Made by a program: the position numbers and the translations under genes. A DNA stretch of 64,000 nucleotides from an uncultured Bacteriovoracaceae bacterium. GTDB taxonomy: Bacteria; Bdellovibrionota; Bacteriovoracia; Bacteriovoracales; Bacteriovoracaceae. The notes beneath the pieces were generated by a model. It ran no database searches and was not told the DNA's origin. It saw only the letters and a list, made by a program, of their open reading frames with translations. The stretch covers positions 283-64,282 of the forward strand of contig CAYRDP010000007.1 in NCBI GenBank assembly GCA_964423165.1, given 5' to 3'. This document shows positions 19,249 through 58,141 of the stretch, piece by piece; the stretch's first letter is position 1; every line of letters begins with the position of its first letter.

Positions 19249-20298
19249 ATGTTTTTTAACAATAAGTATATGATTATTTTTGTATTAATATTGGTATTCT
19301 CAACAGCTGTTGAGGCCAAAAAGGATATTGTTGATATTCACACCCATATAGCCTGCATTGATCAAAAAAATAATGGATGCTATATTTCAAAGGAAATGAT
19401 TAACAATATAAGATTTAAATACTATTTGAAGTCAATGGGAATTAAAGAAGAAGATATCAAAAATGGTACCGCAGACAAAAAAATGATTTTAAACCTTGTT
19501 CAATTAATTCAAAATTCAAAAAGGTTAAGTAAAGCAGTCATTTTAGCAATGGATGGAGTAATTAATACAGAAGGTGAACTAGATAAAGGTAAAACAGAAC
19601 TCTACATACCAAATGAATATATTTCAGAGGCGAGTAAAAATTATCCGGAATTACTTTACGGGGCAAGTATTAATCCATATCGAAAAGATGCACTGGAACT
19701 CTTAGATCATGCCTATCAAAATGGAGCAGTTTTAATTAAGTGGCTTCCTAATATTATGCATATTAATCCTTCTGATAAAAGTTTAATTCCTTTTTATAAA
19801 AAGATGAAAAGTTACGGTATCCCGCTGTTAACACATACAGGCTTTGAGAATTCATTTACAAGATCTGATAACTCACTGGGGGACCCTGCTTTATTAGAGT
19901 TACCACTTTCTCTGGGAGTGAAAGTAGTAGCTGCACACTTTGGTATTGGTGGTAAAAATGAAGGTGATAAAAATTTTAAAAGGATACTTCCACTTTTTAA
20001 AAAATACTCAAATTTGTATGGGGATTTATCTGGACTAACCTTATTGACTAAACCAGGTGCAATAAAAAAAATTACAGAACATAGTTACCTTGCAGATCGA
20101 ATTCTTTATGGATCTGATTATCCATTACTAACTTTTCCCGTAGCATCACCTTTGTATCATATATTTCACTTAAAACTTAAAGAGATAAAAAAATTATTAA
20201 AAATAAATAATAGATTTGATCGCAATATTACTCTTCTAGAATTGTTGGGTATACCCTCGGATTCAATGAATAATTCGGCAAAGTTTTTAAACCTTTAA
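19249..20298 (+). CDS. Secreted metal-dependent amidohydrolase (TIM-barrel, amidohydrolase_2-like)
   Basis: A signal peptide is followed by DIHTHI (HxH metal motif), LLTHTG, AAHFG and YGSDYPL. Confidence 0.55.
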   Translation: MFFNNKYMIIFVLILVFSTAVEAKKDIVDIHTHIACIDQKNNGCYISKEMINNIRFKYYLKSMGIKEEDIKNGTADKKMILNLVQLIQNSKRLSKAVILAMDGVINTEGELDKGKTELYIPNEYISEASKNYPELLYGASINPYRKDALELLDHAYQNGAVLIKWLPNIMHINPSDKSLIPFYKKMKSYGIPLLTHTGFENSFTRSDNSLGDPALLELPLSLGVKVVAAHFGIGGKNEGDKNFKRILPLFKKYSNLYGDLSGLTLLTKPGAIKKITEHSYLADRILYGSDYPLLTFPVASPLYHIFHLKLKEIKKLLKINNRFDRNITLLELLGIPSDSMNNSAKFLNL

Positions 20299-20407
20299 TA
20301 TAAAGTAACTTATCTTCTTTTTCTGTCCCTGATCTACCTACTGTTTTGCCCATTGAAAAAAAAAATATAAATTTTATAATATAAGAGACTTAACTGAAGG
20401 TTATATT

Positions 20408-20794
20408 ATGGTGAAAATAGTATGGATTTTGCTTGTAGTATGTTTTTGTTGGACTACTCACGGACAAAATTATGAAACTTATCATTTTTGGTTTAAGAGA
20501 AAGAAAATTTCAGTTCCAATAAAAAAAGAACAAAATATCCTAATAAATGATATTTGCGTACTAAATCTCAAAAATTGCTTAGCTATGGAAGCCTCCAAGA
20601 AAAAAGTTAAAAAAATTGATTTTAAAAAGATAGCTCAAGGAAATATTGCGGGAGCTTATTGCGAAAAGTTAGACGGAAGCCTTCTTGTTCTTTCAAATGT
20701 GAAAGGCGAAGATACAGAGTTTTGTCATTTTAAAGATAAAACGATGATCGATGCTTATGCTCTTTATCAAAAAGTTAGCAAAGGAAAAAAATAG
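20408..20794 (+). CDS. Secreted DUF333-like protein
   Basis: GNIAGAYCEKLDGSLLVL...EFCHFKDKTMIDAYAL follows the DUF333 pattern (NPAxxYCxxxGG...C.F.DG...W.L). Its stop TAG at 20792-20794 abuts the next ATG at 20795. Confidence 0.45.
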   Translation: MVKIVWILLVVCFCWTTHGQNYETYHFWFKRKKISVPIKKEQNILINDICVLNLKNCLAMEASKKKVKKIDFKKIAQGNIAGAYCEKLDGSLLVLSNVKGEDTEFCHFKDKTMIDAYALYQKVSKGKK

Positions 20795-53905: not shown

Positions 53906-54715
53906 ATGAAATTAACATTTAAAACTATAAACTTTAGTGTGCTTTCAGTTGAGAAACTAGGTAACTTTATTTTAGAAAATGTTTCGTCATTGGGAAGTAT
54001 CTTTTTGTTTGCAAATAAGTTTCTTTTTTGGTCAATGAAAAAACCATATAGATTAAAATTATTTACTGATCAATTAGTTTTTATTGGAAACAAAAGTGTT
54101 TTTATTGTGTGCCTTGCAGGATCATTTTCTGGAATGGTTATGGCATACCAAACTTATTTTGGATTTAAGTTAATTAGTGTTGACTCATTAGTAGGGCCCG
54201 TTGCTGCAATATCACTTGCCAAAGAATTAGCTCCAGTACTCACGGGATTAATAGTTGCCGGTAGAGCAGGAGCTGCGATGGCCGCACAAATTGGAACAAT
54301 GAAAGTAACTGAACAAATTGATGCTTTAGAGGTAATGGGCATTGACTCTTTTCAGTATTTAGTTATACCAAGGATTTGGGCAAGCATGTTTGCATTACCA
54401 ATGCTTTCTGCAATTTTTTTACTTATTGGAAGCATTGGGGCATGGGTAGTTGGTACACAATCATTAATGATTGATGAAGCAATTTTCTACTCAAAGCTTA
54501 GTAACTTTATGTATGTCGCTGATATTTACCAAGGGTTAATCAAAGCATTCTTCTTTGGATTAATTATTTCAATAATTGGAACTTATTTTGGGTTCAAAGC
54601 AGAGAAGGGGGCTGAAGGAGTAGGGAAAGGAACAAATCAAGCTGTCGTTTGGGGAATGATTTCTGTACTAGTCTCCGATTATTTTTTAACAAGCTTTTTA
54701 GTAAGGGTATTATAG
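53906..54715 (+). CDS. mlaE: Phospholipid ABC transporter permease MlaE
   Basis: LAKELAPVLTGLIVAGRAGAAMAAQIGTMKVTEQIDALEVMGI is the MlaE signature. Confidence 0.9.
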   Translation: MKLTFKTINFSVLSVEKLGNFILENVSSLGSIFLFANKFLFWSMKKPYRLKLFTDQLVFIGNKSVFIVCLAGSFSGMVMAYQTYFGFKLISVDSLVGPVAAISLAKELAPVLTGLIVAGRAGAAMAAQIGTMKVTEQIDALEVMGIDSFQYLVIPRIWASMFALPMLSAIFLLIGSIGAWVVGTQSLMIDEAIFYSKLSNFMYVADIYQGLIKAFFFGLIISIIGTYFGFKAEKGAEGVGKGTNQAVVWGMISVLVSDYFLTSFLVRVL

Positions 54716-54722
54716 GCAATAA

Positions 54723-55466
54723 ATGACTAGCGAAAATATTATATCTTTTAAAAATGTTACTAAAAAATATGGATCTCAGACTATTCTAGATGATTTAAGT
54801 TTTGAGATAAAGAAAAATAAAATAACTACAATACTAGGGTTTTCAGGAGCAGGGAAATCAACCCTTTTAAAACATATTTTGGGGCTATCATCACCTACCA
54901 AAGGTCAGATAAATTGCTTAGGCCAAGATATAACTCAATTAGACGATTTCTCTTTGAAAGAATTTCGAAGAAACTTTGGAATGGTTTTTCAGTATGCAGC
55001 ACTATTTGATTCACTGACAGCAATAGAAAATGTTGATTTTCCTCTGAATGAATTTACAACTTTGTCTATAGAGGAACGTTTTGAGCAAGCAAGTAACTTA
55101 CTAATTTCTGTTGGAATTACAGAGAAGTCTTTTAATAAATACCCATCAGAACTATCAGGTGGAATGAGAAAAAGAGTTGGTCTTGCAAGAGCATTGGCAC
55201 TAAGGCCTACAATTATGTTGTATGATGAACCAACGACTGGACTTGACCCCATTACAACTAAAATGGTCAACCGATTAATTATAGATACTGCAAATAGCAA
55301 TAAGGAAAAAGGACTTACCTCAATTATTATTTCTCATAACGTAGAATCAAGTCTAAAAATTTCTGACTTTATCGCATTTCTAGATAATGGTAAAATAATT
55401 GAGAACTTACCTGCATCAGAGTTTAAGAATTCAAAGATTCCAATTATCCAAGAATTCTTAAATTAA
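54723..55466 (+). CDS. mlaF: Phospholipid ABC transporter ATP-binding protein MlaF
   Basis: Walker A GFSGAGKST, signature LSGGMRKR and Walker B MLYDEP. Confidence 0.9.
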   Translation: MTSENIISFKNVTKKYGSQTILDDLSFEIKKNKITTILGFSGAGKSTLLKHILGLSSPTKGQINCLGQDITQLDDFSLKEFRRNFGMVFQYAALFDSLTAIENVDFPLNEFTTLSIEERFEQASNLLISVGITEKSFNKYPSELSGGMRKRVGLARALALRPTIMLYDEPTTGLDPITTKMVNRLIIDTANSNKEKGLTSIIISHNVESSLKISDFIAFLDNGKIIENLPASEFKNSKIPIIQEFLN

Positions 55467-55492
55467 TAATACTTGGATTGGTGGTTGTATTT

Positions 55493-56863
55493 ATGAATGA
55501 ATTTAAAGTTGGACTTCTTGCTTTAGCAACAATTTCTTCAGTAATATATATGTCTCTAAGAATTACTTCCAATCAATCGGGATTTGGAGAGTATGCAAAA
55601 TTTAGAACAATCGTAAAAGACGCTTCTGGAATTTATCCAAAAACACCAATTAAGGTAGCAGGTATTAATGCCGGAAGAATCCATGAAATTGAATTACAAG
55701 GAAATGCTGCTTTAATTACAATGGAGGTTTTAAGTAGAATAAAAGTTACAACAAACTCGAGATTAAAAATTAAAACAGTGGGATTTCTTGGAGACAAGTA
55801 CTTAGAAATAATTGTTGGTGATGAAAAAAAAGAACTAAAAGAAGGGTCATTAATCGAATCTCTAGAAGAAGGAGGAATTGAACAGCTAGTAAAGGATACT
55901 GCAGAAGTAATTACAAGTGTAAAAGAAATAGTTGATAATATGAAAGAGTCAATTAGCCCAGAAGATGGAGGGGTTCCTTTATCAACAATACTTAATGATA
56001 CAAAAGATTTTGTCGCAAATACTAAAGATCTGACAGCTTCTTTAAAAGATTTAGTAAATAATAATTCGGGAAAAGTTAATCATTTAATAAATAACTTAGA
56101 AAAGTCATCAAATAGTCTCGAAACACAACTCAATACATCAAATCCTGATAGTATGATTTCAGAGTTTAAAGAATTATTATTATCGGCAAGAACCGTGACA
56201 AGTGAAATGCAGACAATAATTTCCGATGTTCGCCGAGGGAAAGGAACATTAGGTAAAATAATTTCTGAAGATGGAATTGCAGATAAGGTGTCCAGTGCAT
56301 TATCAGGCGTTAGTAAAATGGTTAATAAGATTGATACTGTCAGAACTGAAGTTGCGGCATTTACAGGTGTGAATAATCAATATGGAGCTGAAACAGTTGC
56401 AAGTGTTAAAATATTTCCAGGGCCGGAAAGATTTTATCAATTAGGGTTAAGTACTTCTGAATTTGGGATTGAAAGTGAGACTTACAGCACTACAGTTACA
56501 AATGGTGCATCAACAGAAGAAGTTAAAAAAGTAAAAGAAAAAAATGATTATAGGTTTGATGTCCAGTTAGGGAGGAAAATACATAATCTGACTTTCAGAG
56601 GTGGGATGATCGAATCGACAGGAGGAATAGGATTAGACTGGCAATTTAATAGATCTGACAGCAAAGTTTCAGCAGATGTTTTTGATTTTAGAAATGGAGT
56701 TGGTGTTAATTTAAGGTTGTCCGGCAAAATTCAACTATGGAATGTATTTTATGGTAAAATAATTGCAGAAGATGTACTTATTGATGATAGAAGTTTTACA
56801 CTATCAACAGGATTACAATTTAACGACGATGACCTAAAAGGTTTAGTAGGATTGATATTTTAA
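55493..56863 (+). CDS. mlaD: MCE-domain protein MlaD with long C-terminal extension
   Basis: An N-terminal TM is followed by the MCE domain (VAGINAGRIHEIEL...). Operon context is mlaE-mlaF. The track start 55478 is TTG. Confidence 0.75.
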   Translation: MNEFKVGLLALATISSVIYMSLRITSNQSGFGEYAKFRTIVKDASGIYPKTPIKVAGINAGRIHEIELQGNAALITMEVLSRIKVTTNSRLKIKTVGFLGDKYLEIIVGDEKKELKEGSLIESLEEGGIEQLVKDTAEVITSVKEIVDNMKESISPEDGGVPLSTILNDTKDFVANTKDLTASLKDLVNNNSGKVNHLINNLEKSSNSLETQLNTSNPDSMISEFKELLLSARTVTSEMQTIISDVRRGKGTLGKIISEDGIADKVSSALSGVSKMVNKIDTVRTEVAAFTGVNNQYGAETVASVKIFPGPERFYQLGLSTSEFGIESETYSTTVTNGASTEEVKKVKEKNDYRFDVQLGRKIHNLTFRGGMIESTGGIGLDWQFNRSDSKVSADVFDFRNGVGVNLRLSGKIQLWNVFYGKIIAEDVLIDDRSFTLSTGLQFNDDDLKGLVGLIF

Positions 56864-57205
56864 ATGGAAAAGAATTGGATTATTCGCACCAGGTCTTTGC
56901 AGATTTTAGGGCCTGTCTCTAAAGAAAAAATTATAGAGCTTATAGATGGTGGAACACTTTCTGAAGAAGATGAGATTTGCCAAGGTAATGGTTACTGGTT
57001 TTTCGTTAGTGAAAAAGATCTTATAGAAAAATATTTAAGAAATAATGAACCTTCAGAGTTTAATCCAATTTCAGAGGCTATTGAAAGTGAAAGGTTAGTA
57101 TTTCAAGCTCCTCTAAAAAATAATGATCCAATAATTCCTGAAAATGAGGATTTGGAGTACCCTGTAATTGGTGAACAGTTATCTGTTTCTAAAAAAAAAA
57201 CTTAA
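56864..57205 (+). CDS. Small GYF_2-like domain protein, terminated just after an A10 tract
   Basis: WIIRTRSLQILGPVSKEKIIELIDGGTLSEEDEICQGNGYWFF resembles the GYF_2 (DUF4339) pattern. The ATG overlaps the mlaD stop (taaATG). Confidence 0.6.
   Translation: MEKNWIIRTRSLQILGPVSKEKIIELIDGGTLSEEDEICQGNGYWFFVSEKDLIEKYLRNNEPSEFNPISEAIESERLVFQAPLKNNDPIIPENEDLEYPVIGEQLSVSKKKT
57191..57200 (+). other. Homopolymeric A10 tract (potential slippage site)
   Basis: Read directly: tct aaaaaaaaaa ctt aac. Adding one A, or a -1 ribosomal shift, joins ORF 56864 to the downstream open frame. Confidence 0.8.
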
Positions 57206-57516
57206 CTTCTGAATTAAGTAAAGAACCTGAAGTAAACACAGAGCCTGAAATAAGTAAAGAACCTAAAGTAAACATAGAACCTAAAGTAAACATAGAACCT
57301 AAAGTAAACATAGAACCTGAAGTAAAGATAGAACCTGAAGTAAAGATAGAACCTGAAGTAAAGATAGGGCCTGAAAAAAATAATGATAGTAATATAAAAT
57401 CAAGAAATAATATTTATATTATTATAGCAATACTCACGATATTTTTATCTGGAGTTTTAGTAAGTATATATTATTATTATACAGTCGTATTAAATAAACC
57501 CTTTCCATTTCTTTAA
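57193..57516 (+). CDS. Start-codon-less open frame: (EPxVxI)n repeats plus C-terminal TM helix; probable frameshifted continuation of 56864-57205
   Basis: Own translation in the -1 frame: KKNLTSELSKEPEVNTEPEISKEPKVNIEPKVNIEPKVNIEPEVKIEPEVKIEPEVKIGPEKNNDSNIKSRNNIYIIIAILTIFLSGVLVSIYYYYTVVLNKPFPFL, stop at 57514-57516. There is no Met in 107 codons. Confidence 0.5.
   Translation, partial: KKNLTSELSKEPEVNTEPEISKEPKVNIEPKVNIEPKVNIEPEVKIEPEVKIEPEVKIGPEKNNDSNIKSRNNIYIIIAILTIFLSGVLVSIYYYYTVVLNKPFPFL
57223..57366 (+). repeat. 18-bp tandem repeat, 8 copies (two subfamilies with 3 identical copies each)
   Basis: gaacctaaagtaaacata x3 (57259-57312) and gaacctgaagtaaagata x3 (57313-57366), preceded by two diverged units. 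Confidence 0.9.
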
Positions 57517-57538: not shown

Positions 57539-58141
57539 ATGAATGATAATATTTATATTTATCCTACTGATACCGTCTGGGGCATCGGTGCTTCAATTTA
57601 CTCAGAGTCAGGAAATAATTCATTAAGAGAAATTAAAAATAAAGAATGTAATGCCCCTTTATCATTATTATTTGCAGGTAAAGTGATGTTAATGGATTAT
57701 ATTAATTTCCCTGCAACAATTAATTTAGAAAATCTTTTTAAATTGTTTGACTTTGAAATTTCTCTATTGTTGCCAGTCTCATGGATAAAGAAAGATGTTC
57801 CTAAATGGGTTTTATGTGATTCAAAGTATATTTCGATTAGGTTCGTTGAGAATGAGTCAATCTTAAAGATAATAAAAGAGACTCGCTCTCCAATAACAAG
57901 TACAAGTTTAAATTTTTCAAATGAGAAACCCATCACAGACCTATTGTCAGTTAAATCATTCTGTACCAAAGTAGGGAGAAAATATAAGCTAATTGTATTT
58001 GGAGATAATGATCAGAGCTATACGCTTTCCGGTGAAGCGTCAACAATGATAACCTTAAATGAATTAGGCAATAGTAAAATTATTAGAAGAGGATTAAGGA
58101 TACAAGAAATTGAAAAACACCTTTCAGTACTCACAGCCTGA
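57539..58141 (+). CDS. tsaC: L-threonylcarbamoyladenylate synthase (YrdC/TsaC family)
   Basis: IYIYPTDTVWGIGAS matches the YrdC motif PTDTVYG. Its size is typical of the short TsaC form. Confidence 0.7.
   Translation: MNDNIYIYPTDTVWGIGASIYSESGNNSLREIKNKECNAPLSLLFAGKVMLMDYINFPATINLENLFKLFDFEISLLLPVSWIKKDVPKWVLCDSKYISIRFVENESILKIIKETRSPITSTSLNFSNEKPITDLLSVKSFCTKVGRKYKLIVFGDNDQSYTLSGEASTMITLNELGNSKIIRRGLRIQEIEKHLSVLTA

What the first reader, a model, noticed from the sequence alone, without database searches (positions are those of the whole stretch)
56864..57516. A10 tract splits a soluble-domain ORF from a start-less repeat-plus-transmembrane extension: candidate programmed frameshift, transcriptional slippage or phase switch
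Seen directly: ORF 56864-57205 ends ...tct aaa aaa aaa act taa. The -1 frame opens at 57193 and stays open for 107 codons to 57516 without a single Met. It encodes SKEPEVNT / EPKVNI x3 / EPEVKI x3 repeats, then a hydrophobic helix (IYIIIAILTIFLSGVLVSIYYYY). Adding one A (A11), or a -1 ribosomal shift on the A-run, gives a 217-aa fusion of a GYF_2-like domain, a proline/glutamate linker and a membrane anchor. A long intact frame with coding-like periodic repeats and no start codon is hard to explain unless it is translated as a continuation. Established knowledge: runs of 9 or more A promote RNA polymerase slippage and are slippery for ribosomes. Such runs are also hot spots for replication slippage and sequencing error. 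The locus sits right after mlaEFD, with the ATG overlapping the mlaD stop.
Basis: partly seen in the sequence, partly recalled or inferred. Interest (0 to 1): 0.65.

Follow-up and report, generated by a model that had tools for sequence, protein, structure and literature searches.

The report
Poly-A tract splits membrane-anchored GYF gene
A run of ten A's really does split a conserved gene of a marine predatory bacterium into a soluble half and a start-less membrane-anchor half, and related genomes carry conserved A-runs in the same gene that must be read by slippage, so the split is probably bridged the same way; this is not proven.

Summary
ORF 56864-57205 ends TCT AAA AAA AAA ACT TAA, with A10 at 57191-57200. 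The -1 frame is open from 57193 to 57516 and has no ATG, GTG or TTG start.

The fusion is the ancestral architecture. Hundreds of Bacteriovoracales homologues are single ORFs with a GYF-like domain, an acidic linker, a TM helix and a YYYxxVLNKP motif. The gene is the fourth gene of mlaEFD in 78 of 80 genomes.

A10 is not an assembly error. Nine independent metagenome samples carry identical DNA, and products of other tract lengths are absent from 15 billion proteins.

The family is extraordinarily rich in A9-A13 tracts: 108 in the gene against 8 in 3.5 times more flanking DNA. A second tract after the TM helix joins a start-less domain of about 400 aa in the -1 frame in about 50 of 58 species (pN/pS 0.11-0.14). 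That is a conserved recoding site with the same length, phase and direction as the window's tract.

The window's nearest orthologues are in frame and have no tract, so its split is lineage-specific.

Best reading (about 0.55): the default product is soluble, and slippage adding one A gives the anchored form. Main rival: a recent truncation.

The parts
55478..56863 (+). mlaD-like gene (MCE domain plus a long C-terminal extension). It is the third gene of mlaE-mlaF-mlaD, and its stop abuts the ATG of the split gene.
   Evidence: Pfam MlaD E 2e-13. The order mlaE-mlaF-mlaD-family gene is conserved in 78 of 80 related loci.
56864..57205 (+). ORF1, the 0-frame product of 113 aa. It holds the GYF-like domain (about residues 1-75), an EDLEYP motif and the ending SVSKKKT*.
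   Evidence: AlphaFold pLDDT is above 90 for residues 10-60. The Foldseek top hits are GYF domains 3fma, 7z3c and 7ruq. The exact product is found on at least 15 contigs.
57173..57188 (+). Small hairpin GAACAG-UUAU-CUGUUU that ends 2 nt 5' of the tract. It is a possible but unproven stimulator of slippage.
   Evidence: Energy -4.1 kcal/mol; 8.7% of random window positions do as well, so it is not significant on its own. Similar hairpins next to the tract are enriched at the family's C-terminal sites (33% against 14%, p = 0.002).
57191..57200 (+). A10 tract, the frame junction. It starts at codon position 1 (AAA AAA AAA A..), and the T in front of it makes a TAA that closes the -1 frame just upstream.
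   Evidence: It is identical in nine independent samples. It is the only A/T run of 9 or more in coding sequence of the window. Eight other KKK triplets in the window's long ORFs are all interrupted by AAG.
57203..57205 (+). 0-frame stop TAA, one codon after the tract.
   Evidence: The layout is the same at the family's conserved recoding sites, where the 0-frame stop lies 2-20 codons after the tract.
57193..57516 (+). The -1-frame continuation: 107 codons plus stop, with no canonical start. It corresponds to residues 113-217 of the fusion.
   Evidence: It aligns with the C-termini of single-ORF orthologues.
57222..57375 (+). 18-bp tandem repeat of 8.6 copies encoding the hexapeptide linker EPKVNI/EPEVKI. 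It is specific to this lineage.
   Evidence: TRF score 210, 88% matches. Only the -1 frame is open through it. Logan contigs break inside it.
57406..57492 (+). Transmembrane helix (fusion residues 182-210). It is homologous to the signal-anchor or signal peptide of relatives.
   Evidence: AlphaFold helix 182-210 with pLDDT 84-98. Alignment A1. In L054 and L065 the equivalent segment is the signal peptide of a separate gene.
57469..57516 (+). Conserved C-terminal motif YYYYTVVLNKPFPFL plus the stop.
   Evidence: It matches YYYKxVLNKPLP(V) of the Halobacteriovoraceae-type orthologues, several of which also end here and are followed by the tsaC-like gene.

Best explanation
The genome really carries A10. 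The gene is one member of a Bacteriovoracales-specific, mla-operon-linked family. Its architecture is a cytoplasmic GYF-like domain, a disordered linker, a TM signal-anchor and, in most lineages, a periplasmic domain of about 400 aa. In this family long poly-A tracts at the borders of the TM segment act as slippage sites.

In the window, standard decoding gives a soluble 113-aa GYF-like protein ending in KKKT. A fraction of expression events gains one A in the mRNA by RNA-polymerase slippage on the T10 template. A -1 ribosomal slip or slide on A_AAA_AAA would give the same result. These events produce the 217-aa membrane-anchored form. The tract would therefore set a soluble-to-anchored ratio, as shown for the A11 tract of Citrobacter tssM1.

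Shown: the tract, the frames, homology of the downstream frame, reproducibility of A10, and the family-wide conserved tracts and -1 recoding site. Inferred: that slippage occurs at the window's own tract and that the anchored product matters.
For: (1) The downstream frame is the ancestral C-terminus. It is intact over 107 codons with no start codon.

(2) A10 is fixed in nine independent samples with about 100% identical DNA. No product of another tract length exists in the 15-billion-protein collection.

(3) A/T runs of 9 or more number 108 in 104 kb of family-gene sequence against 8 in 363 kb of flanks. All 92 runs of 10 or more lie in the gene. Elsewhere AAA makes up only 66% of Lys codons, and none of 9 KKK triplets is all-AAA.

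(4) At the tract after the TM helix, about 50 of 58 species have the 0-frame stop 2-20 codons later and a 370-430-aa conserved ORF in the -1 frame. That ORF opens at the tract and has no start for up to 80 codons. Its pre-start stretch has pN/pS 0.11-0.14, against more than 1.7 in control frames. Isolates are included: L021 (titled Bacteriovorax sp. BSW11_IV) and L062 (Halobacteriovorax sp. CON-3, assembly coverage about 293).

(5) The window's tract has the same length (A10), the same phase (NNN AAA AAA AAA ANN) and the same direction (-1, corrected by adding one A) as that conserved site.

(6) The tract before the TM helix in the YFRK-type clade is A9-A13. It is in frame in 31 species. It is followed by stops within 1-11 codons in both other frames, and 16 of 37 tracts (31 in frame and 6 out of frame) are followed directly by TAA, TAG or TGA. 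It is out of frame in 6-7 species. Both configurations are therefore tolerated.

(7) Published work shows runs of 9-11 A give mainly added-A transcripts and about 25-50% frame-corrected product (PMC4256274; PMC5009743).

(8) The window's genome otherwise avoids such runs.
Against: The nearest orthologues by gene organisation are L031, L042, L066, L074, L082, L083 and L085, with MlaD about 52% identical. They are in frame and have no run of 9 or more A's, so the window's site is not a conserved recoding site.

No sister genome exists in the databases, so selection on the downstream frame since the frameshift cannot be measured.

Lineages with only the N-domain exist: L033, and the separate genes in L054 and L065. 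The soluble product may therefore be sufficient.

There is no significant RNA structure or Rfam element at the site. The upstream hairpin is not significant on its own. No RNA or protein data are available.
Confidence: 0.55

Rival explanations
1. Recent truncating mutation. A one-base indel in a Lys-coding A-run removed the anchor. Only the soluble 113-aa GYF-like protein is functional, and the downstream frame is a remnant that has not yet decayed. Any slippage product would be incidental leak.
For: The site is lineage-specific, because the closest orthologues are in frame without a tract. Soluble-only versions occur naturally: L033 is 102 aa and is followed directly by tsaC, and L054 and L065 carry the N-domain as a separate gene. 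The population is clonal, with one SNP in 6.3 kb across samples, so there has been no time for decay. The linker is unusually short and rearranged compared with relatives.
Against: The downstream frame has no lesion in 107 codons at 33% GC, and the conserved TM and YYYxxVLNKPFP motif is retained. The out-of-frame state is the one corrected by the commonest slippage class, addition of one A. The uninterrupted A10 contrasts with this genome's avoidance of such runs. Relatives demonstrably decode an identical configuration.
Confidence: 0.28
2. Phase variation. Replication slippage toggles the tract between A10 (OFF for the anchor) and A11 or A8 (ON), giving heritable subpopulations.
For: An A10 run is mutable. 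Closely related family members differ in state at the tract before the TM helix: P0118 ends ..EEKKKTN* while P0058 reads ..EEKKKVSEE.., and P0085 ends ..ASKKKK* while P0070 reads ..ASKKKVSK... Out-of-frame states occur in both directions.
Against: All nine samples and at least 15 contigs carry A10. Products of A8, A9, A11, A12, A13 and A14 are absent from 15 billion proteins. At the family's second tract the -1 state is kept in about 50 of 58 species, which is the opposite of ON/OFF toggling.
Confidence: 0.1
3. Sequencing or assembly error. The true tract would be A11 and the gene a plain 217-aa ORF.
For: Homopolymers are the classic site of indel errors. Some related MAG assemblies have low coverage.
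Against: Identical A10 appears in assemblies from JGI, ENA and Logan, from nine samples and with different assemblers. No A11 product exists anywhere. Illumina consensus calls at 10-nt runs are normally reliable (general knowledge).
Confidence: 0.04
4. Purely ribosomal programmed -1 frameshifting on A_AAA_AAA with dedicated stimulators, of the dnaX or IS type.
For: The slippery heptamer is present in the right phase. The product would be identical to the added-A product.
Against: There is no SD-like element, downstream hairpin or pseudoknot: the fold z-score is +0.68, there is no Rfam hit, and mean flanking z-scores across 45 family sites are about -0.1 to -0.2. The conserved tract lengths of 9-13 exceed the 7 nt a ribosome needs and match the roughly 9-bp RNA:DNA hybrid requirement for polymerase slippage.
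Confidence: 0.1

Closest known systems
Citrobacter rodentium tssM1 (and Yersinia pseudotuberculosis tssM): an A11 tract and transcriptional slippage giving two length variants (Gueguen et al. 2014, PMC4256274)
   Same: A homopolymeric A run sits just before a premature stop in a membrane-protein gene. The conserved C-terminal part is in another frame without a start. Adding A's in the mRNA restores the frame, and no SD or structure stimulators are present. In tssM1 both short and long forms are made (about 25% long) and both are needed.
   Different: For the window the RNA and protein evidence is missing. The gene family is unrelated (GYF-like, mla-linked). What is gained is a membrane anchor and not a periplasmic beta-domain. 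The window's site is not conserved in its nearest orthologues.
Thermus thermophilus dnaX: slippage at a 9-nt homopolymer gives the tau and gamma isoforms
   Same: A tract of 9 or more A/T in a coding region yields a mixed mRNA pool and nested protein isoforms. Out-of-frame stops lie immediately after the tract (Antonov 2013). This matches the in-frame tracts before the TM helix in the YFRK-type clade.
   Different: In dnaX the genomic frame encodes the long form and slippage truncates it. The window is the inverse: the genomic frame gives the short form.
Buchnera and Blochmannia poly(A) frameshifts rescued by polymerase infidelity (Tamas 2008 and Wernegreen 2010, as summarised in PMC3017870)
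   Same: An AT-rich genome, an indel in a tract of 9-12 A's, an otherwise intact gene, and about 30% full-length transcripts. The same ambiguity exists between recent erosion and a maintained frameshift.
   Different: Those genomes hold more than 100 coding poly-A tracts as a result of mutational bias. Here long tracts are avoided genome-wide and concentrated in one gene family, which argues for selection on the tracts.
E. coli dnaX and IS3-family -1 programmed ribosomal frameshifting (A_AAA_AAG)
   Same: The direction is -1, the slippery sequence is Lys-codon based, and the 0-frame stop is close by.
   Different: No stimulatory SD, hairpin or pseudoknot was detected. The tract is longer than a heptamer.
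Homopolymer phase-variable contingency loci (for example the Mycoplasma p78 poly-A tract)
   Same: A homopolymer inside an ORF of an envelope-associated protein. States differ between some related strains of the family.
   Different: No tract-length polymorphism exists in the window's population. The -1 state is conserved across species at the family's second tract.

Membership tests
Programmed transcriptional realignment (poly-A/T slippage) producing length variants | Homopolymeric A or T run of 9 or more inside the coding region at the frame junction | tested here: met
   A10 at 57191-57200, with the stop one codon later
Programmed transcriptional realignment (poly-A/T slippage) producing length variants | The downstream frame encodes the homologous C-terminal part and has no initiation codon of its own | tested here: met
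   The -1 frame aligns with the orthologues' TM and YYYxxVLNKP motif. No ATG, GTG or TTG start is present.
Programmed transcriptional realignment (poly-A/T slippage) producing length variants | The out-of-frame arrangement is conserved among orthologues | tested here: not met
   The window's site is absent from its nearest orthologues. The feature is met only for the family's other tract, after the TM helix, where about 50 of 58 species are at -1.
Programmed transcriptional realignment (poly-A/T slippage) producing length variants | A heterogeneous mRNA population with extra A's, and detection of the fusion protein | not testable with these tools
   This needs RNA-seq, cDNA ESI-MS, or western blot or proteomics
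-1 programmed ribosomal frameshifting (dnaX/IS type) | Slippery heptamer X_XXY_YYZ in phase | tested here: met
   A_AAA_AAA in the 0 frame
-1 programmed ribosomal frameshifting (dnaX/IS type) | Stimulatory upstream SD-like element and/or downstream hairpin or pseudoknot | tested here: not met
   Fold z-score +0.68. No Rfam match. No flanking structure signal across 45 family sites.
Phase-variable contingency locus (slipped-strand mispairing) | Tract-length polymorphism among strains or samples of one population | tested here: not met
   Nine samples all carry A10. Products of A8, A9, A11, A12, A13 and A14 are not in the collection. Minor subpopulations within reads could not be examined.
Pseudogene (eroding gene) | ORF disrupted relative to orthologues | tested here: met
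   Orthologues are single ORFs
Pseudogene (eroding gene) | Additional lesions or relaxed selection downstream of the first lesion | tested here: inconclusive
   No further stop or indel in 107 codons. The population is clonal and no sister genome exists, so pN/pS cannot be computed.
GYF_2 domain (Pfam PF14237) / GYF fold | Sequence score above the Pfam gathering threshold | tested here: not met
   14.1 bits against a cut-off of 25.8, E 0.04
GYF_2 domain (Pfam PF14237) / GYF fold | GYF-like three-dimensional fold | tested here: met
   The AlphaFold N-domain has pLDDT above 90. The Foldseek top hits are GYF domains: Smy2 3fma, Myxococcus GltJ 7z3c and GIGYF1 7ruq, with probability about 1, E 3e-3 to 8e-3, and TM-score normalised to target 0.5-0.67.

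The most novel reading that the evidence does not exclude
The window's tract may be one instance of an undescribed, family-wide decoding device of predatory Bacteriovoracales. One mla-operon gene carries two selected poly-A tracts that bracket a signal-anchor. RNA-polymerase or ribosome slippage at them would partition expression among three nested topological isoforms. These are a soluble cytoplasmic GYF protein, a membrane-anchored GYF protein, and an anchored protein extended by a periplasmic domain of about 400 aa. Lineages would retune the ratios by one-base changes in tract length, and the window would be a lineage set to soluble by default and anchored by slippage.
Probability: 0.4. Interest if true: 0.75.

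Novelty: new member of a known kind. Interest (0 to 1): 0.58.

Why it matters
Three things would follow if the reading is right.

First, gene callers systematically mis-annotate this locus. In the window they call a 113-aa orphan and a spurious antisense ORF. In about 50 related species they miss a periplasmic domain of about 400 aa that has no start codon.

Second, it would add a clear, phylogenetically broad case of programmed poly-A slippage in free-living predatory bacteria. The selection acts on the tract itself, with 27- to 47-fold enrichment over flanks against a background of avoidance. This differs from the mutational-bias cases in endosymbionts.

Third, it ties recoding to membrane topology and to an MCE/Mla lipid-transport operon in bacteria whose lifestyle depends on envelope remodelling. 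That gives a directly testable handle on an uncharacterised accessory protein.

For the window alone the stakes are smaller: whether a membrane anchor is still made.

Tried and rejected
(1) Two DNA pattern scans of metagenome contigs for tract-length variants found nothing. That collection evidently lacks this population, so the scans are uninformative and are not evidence of absence.

(2) Two apparent protein variants turned out to be scaffolds with N gaps, not real alleles. These were the 132-aa product in L093 and the 234-aa neighbour in L003.

(3) No separate start for the downstream frame was found.

(4) No known RNA element, terminator or promoter was found at the site. There is no significant local structure.

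(5) The hairpin upstream of the tract is suggestive but not significant for the window (8.7% of controls do as well). It is only moderately enriched in the family.

(6) Pfam finds nothing for the downstream domain of about 400 aa in relatives.

(7) The genome scan did not retrieve the window's own genome, because its motif DEICQGNGY falls outside the search pattern. No closer relative than 68% N-domain identity exists in the protein database, so the decisive sister-species comparison was impossible.

(8) I considered that the window's tract might be homologous to the family's tract after the TM helix. I rejected this because in the window the TM helix follows the tract.

(9) A literature search found no report of this family or of poly-A recoding in Bacteriovorax or Halobacteriovorax.

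Full report
**1. Observation**

- ORF 56864-57205 encodes 113 aa and ends TCT AAA AAA AAA ACT TAA.
- The A10 run is at 57191-57200.
- The -1 frame is open from 57193 to 57516 (107 codons). It encodes a hexapeptide-repeat linker, made by an 18-bp tandem repeat of 8.6 copies at 57222-57375, a hydrophobic helix, and the ending YYYYTVVLNKPFPFL.
- That frame has no ATG, GTG or TTG that would give even a 20-aa ORF.
- One extra A gives a 217-aa fusion.

Three details need correcting.

- The ATG abuts the mlaD stop and does not overlap it.
- The Pfam GYF_2 hit is below threshold.
- An A10 run alone is not improbable at 33% GC. Such runs are in fact depleted here, with 2 observed against 8.7 ± 4.5 in shuffles. 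The other A10 is intergenic.

**2. What the gene is**

The fused sequence finds 400 homologues, and the organism labels they carry are Halobacteriovoraceae or Halobacteriovorax. Most are single ORFs of 200-440 aa with a common architecture:

- a conserved N-domain (MEKNWLIRT..GNGYWF..FNPISEA);
- a variable acidic linker with EDLEYPD motifs;
- a basic patch;
- one TM helix;
- then YYYKxVLNKPLP or YFRK, followed by AxAQ and KKK.

The window's -1 frame aligns with the basic-patch, TM and YYYxxVLNKPFP part, so the fusion is the ancestral gene.

AlphaFold models the N-domain (pLDDT above 90) and the helix at residues 182-210 with confidence; the linker is disordered. Foldseek's best PDB matches are GYF domains, including Smy2, Myxococcus GltJ and GIGYF1.

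In 78 of 80 related genome loci the gene directly follows mlaE-mlaF-mlaD, as it does in the window.

**3. Is A10 real?**

The exact 113-aa product lies on at least 15 contigs.

- Nine samples from JGI, ENA and Logan assemblies carry the tract, and all show A10.
- Their DNA is 99.98-100% identical to the window over up to 6.3 kb.
- The only differences are one SNP at 57546 and N-gap scaffolding artefacts.
- The proteins expected from A8, A9, A11, A12, A13 or A14 are not among 15 billion proteins.

Assembly error and population-level phase switching are therefore unlikely. Minor read-level variants could not be examined.

**4. Family context**

This is the most informative result. I scanned one genome per species and obtained 80 Bacteriovoracales loci.

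*Tract enrichment*

- A/T runs of 9 or more occur 108 times in 104 kb of family-gene sequence but 8 times in 363 kb of flanks.
- All 92 runs of 10 or more are in the gene, and A10 is the modal length (67 runs).
- Elsewhere only 66% of Lys codons are AAA, and none of 9 KKK triplets is all-AAA.

There are two tract positions.

*(a) The tract after the TM helix and the AxAQ motif*

- The 0 frame stops 2-20 codons after the tract in about 50 of 58 species.
- A conserved ORF of 370-430 aa lies in the -1 frame and opens at the tract.
- The T before the run often makes a TAA that closes that frame just upstream.
- The ORF's first canonical start is up to 80 codons inside conserved sequence.
- For close species pairs, the stretch between the tract and the first start has pN/pS 0.11-0.14 in the -1 frame, against more than 1.7 in the other frames. 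It is therefore translated, and it can only be entered through the tract.
- Seven species are in frame and one is at +1.
- Isolates show the same arrangement: L021 (titled Bacteriovorax sp. BSW11_IV) and L062 (Halobacteriovorax sp. CON-3, assembly coverage about 293).
- This is a conserved -1 recoding site, and I found no description of it in the literature.

*(b) The tract before the TM helix, in the YFRK-type clade*

- It is A9-A13 and in frame in 31 species.
- Both alternative frames stop within 1-11 codons.
- Of the 37 tracts at this position (31 in frame, 6 out of frame), 16 are followed directly by TAA, TAG or TGA.
- It is out of frame in 6-7 species, three at -1 and three at +1, with the TM segment intact downstream.

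*Other architectures*

- In L054 and L065 the N-domain and a secreted large-domain protein with its own signal peptide are separate genes.
- In L033 only a 102-aa N-domain remains.

**5. Where the window sits**

By its motifs and gene order the window belongs to a sub-clade whose gene ends at NKPLPV* and is followed directly by the tsaC-like gene. This sub-clade has no second tract and no large domain. Its members are L031, L042, L066, L074, L082, L083 and L085, with MlaD about 52% identical to the window's.

Those orthologues are in-frame ORFs of 300-408 aa with no A run of 9 or more. The window's split is therefore lineage-specific. No closer relative exists in the databases.

The window's tract nevertheless has the same length, codon phase (NNN AAA AAA AAA ANN) and direction (-1, needing one added A) as the family's conserved recoding site.

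It is also exceptional in its own genome. Eight other KKK triplets in the window's long ORFs are all interrupted by AAG, where 3.3 all-AAA triplets would be expected.

**6. Mechanism**

No frameshift-stimulating structure or known RNA family is present.

- The fold z-score at the window's site is +0.68.
- There is no Rfam hit and no terminator.
- Across 45 family sites the flanks show no structure signal.
- A hairpin abutting the 5' side of the tract is moderately enriched in the family (33% against 14%, p = 0.002). The window has one at 57173-57188, at -4.1 kcal/mol, which is not significant alone.

Tract lengths of 9-13 exceed the ribosomal heptamer. They fit the roughly 9-bp hybrid requirement for RNA-polymerase realignment, which mainly adds A's. 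That is the class that corrects a -1 arrangement.

The experimentally proven analogue is the A11 tract of C. rodentium tssM1. It gives about 25% full-length protein, transcripts with 10-15 A's, and both forms are required.

I therefore favour transcriptional slippage, possibly helped by ribosome sliding, as the way the anchored form would be made. This is an inference; no RNA or protein data exist.

**7. Verdict**

| Reading | Probability |
|---|---|
| Real A10; default soluble 113-aa GYF-like protein plus a slippage-made 217-aa anchored form | about 0.55 |
| Recent truncation toward a soluble-only gene, as in L033, with only incidental leak | about 0.28 |
| Phase variation | about 0.1 |
| Sequencing or assembly error | about 0.04 |

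For the window the phenomenon is a new member of a known kind, a poly-A slippage-bridged frameshift. The family-wide architecture of two tracts bracketing the TM helix, and the conserved -1 site, are the more novel result and deserve follow-up.

Noticed in passing
Related loci, for example L009:3943-5213, L025:4093-5336, L010:3604-4733, L021:3975, L062:4063: A conserved -1 recoding site exists in the family and is absent from the window. An A9-A12 tract follows the TM helix and AxAQ motif, the 0-frame stop lies 2-20 codons later, and a conserved domain of 370-430 aa sits in the -1 frame with no start codon. About 50 of 58 species show this. The pre-start stretch has pN/pS 0.11-0.14. I found no description in the literature searched, and Pfam finds nothing for the domain.
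   Followed up: yes
Related loci, for example L010:3376, L039:3402, L040:3113, L034:726: In-frame A9-A13 tracts lie 57-190 nt upstream of the TM helix in 31 species. Of the 37 tracts at this position (31 in frame, 6 out of frame), 16 are followed immediately by an out-of-frame TAA, TAG or TGA. Both alternative frames stop within 1-11 codons. This looks like a programmed truncation site that would yield a soluble N-domain isoform.
   Followed up: partly
L054:3338-4570, L065:3183-4540, L033:3001-3313: Alternative architectures occur. In L054 and L065 the N-domain gene and the large-domain gene are separate, and the latter starts with its own signal peptide (MKVKIRRLLFLFSFFLIQQSFSQ|E). The family's TM helix plus AxAQ motif is therefore homologous to a cleavable signal peptide. 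In L033 only a 102-aa N-domain remains before tsaC.
   Followed up: partly
window 20356-20365: The only other A10 run in the window is intergenic. It lies between the stop at 20298 and the ATG at 20408 of a small secreted-looking protein, within TTGAAAAAAAAAATATAAATTTTATAATAT. It could lie in a promoter spacer, so its length could affect transcription.
   Followed up: no
window, all long ORFs: The genome avoids long A runs in coding sequence. All 8 KKK triplets in ORFs of 150 aa or more are interrupted by AAG, against 3.3 all-AAA expected from 74% AAA usage. A10 runs number 2 against 8.7 expected from shuffles.
   Followed up: yes
window 55478-56863 and 53906-57516; loci L009-L088: The MlaD homologue is 461 aa, with a long C-terminal extension that gives weak OMP beta-barrel hits (PF13505) and a PF27164 hit. 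The GYF-like gene is the conserved fourth gene of mlaE-mlaF-mlaD in 78 of 80 Bacteriovoracales loci, which suggests an uncharacterised accessory subunit of this MCE system.
   Followed up: partly
window 57189-57311 (-) and 57222-57375: Public gene calls include a 40-aa antisense ORF (MFTLGSMFTLGS...). It is an artefact of the 18-bp repeat. Logan contigs break inside this repeat at about window 57287 and 57338, so the repeat copy number is not independently verified by those assemblies.
   Followed up: partly
L093:2269-2667; L003:5925-5968: Two public scaffolds of the same population contain runs of N. These create spurious protein variants in databases: a 132-aa version of the GYF ORF and a 234-aa neighbour.
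   Followed up: yes
L038 (JBLHVN010000001.1, titled 'Sulfitobacter sp.') and L081 (CAXPDR010000041.1, titled 'Flavobacteriaceae bacterium'): These records carry typical Bacteriovoracales family loci. L038 is organised nearly as the Halobacteriovorax locus L009. Their organism labels are probably wrong or the bins are contaminated.
   Followed up: no
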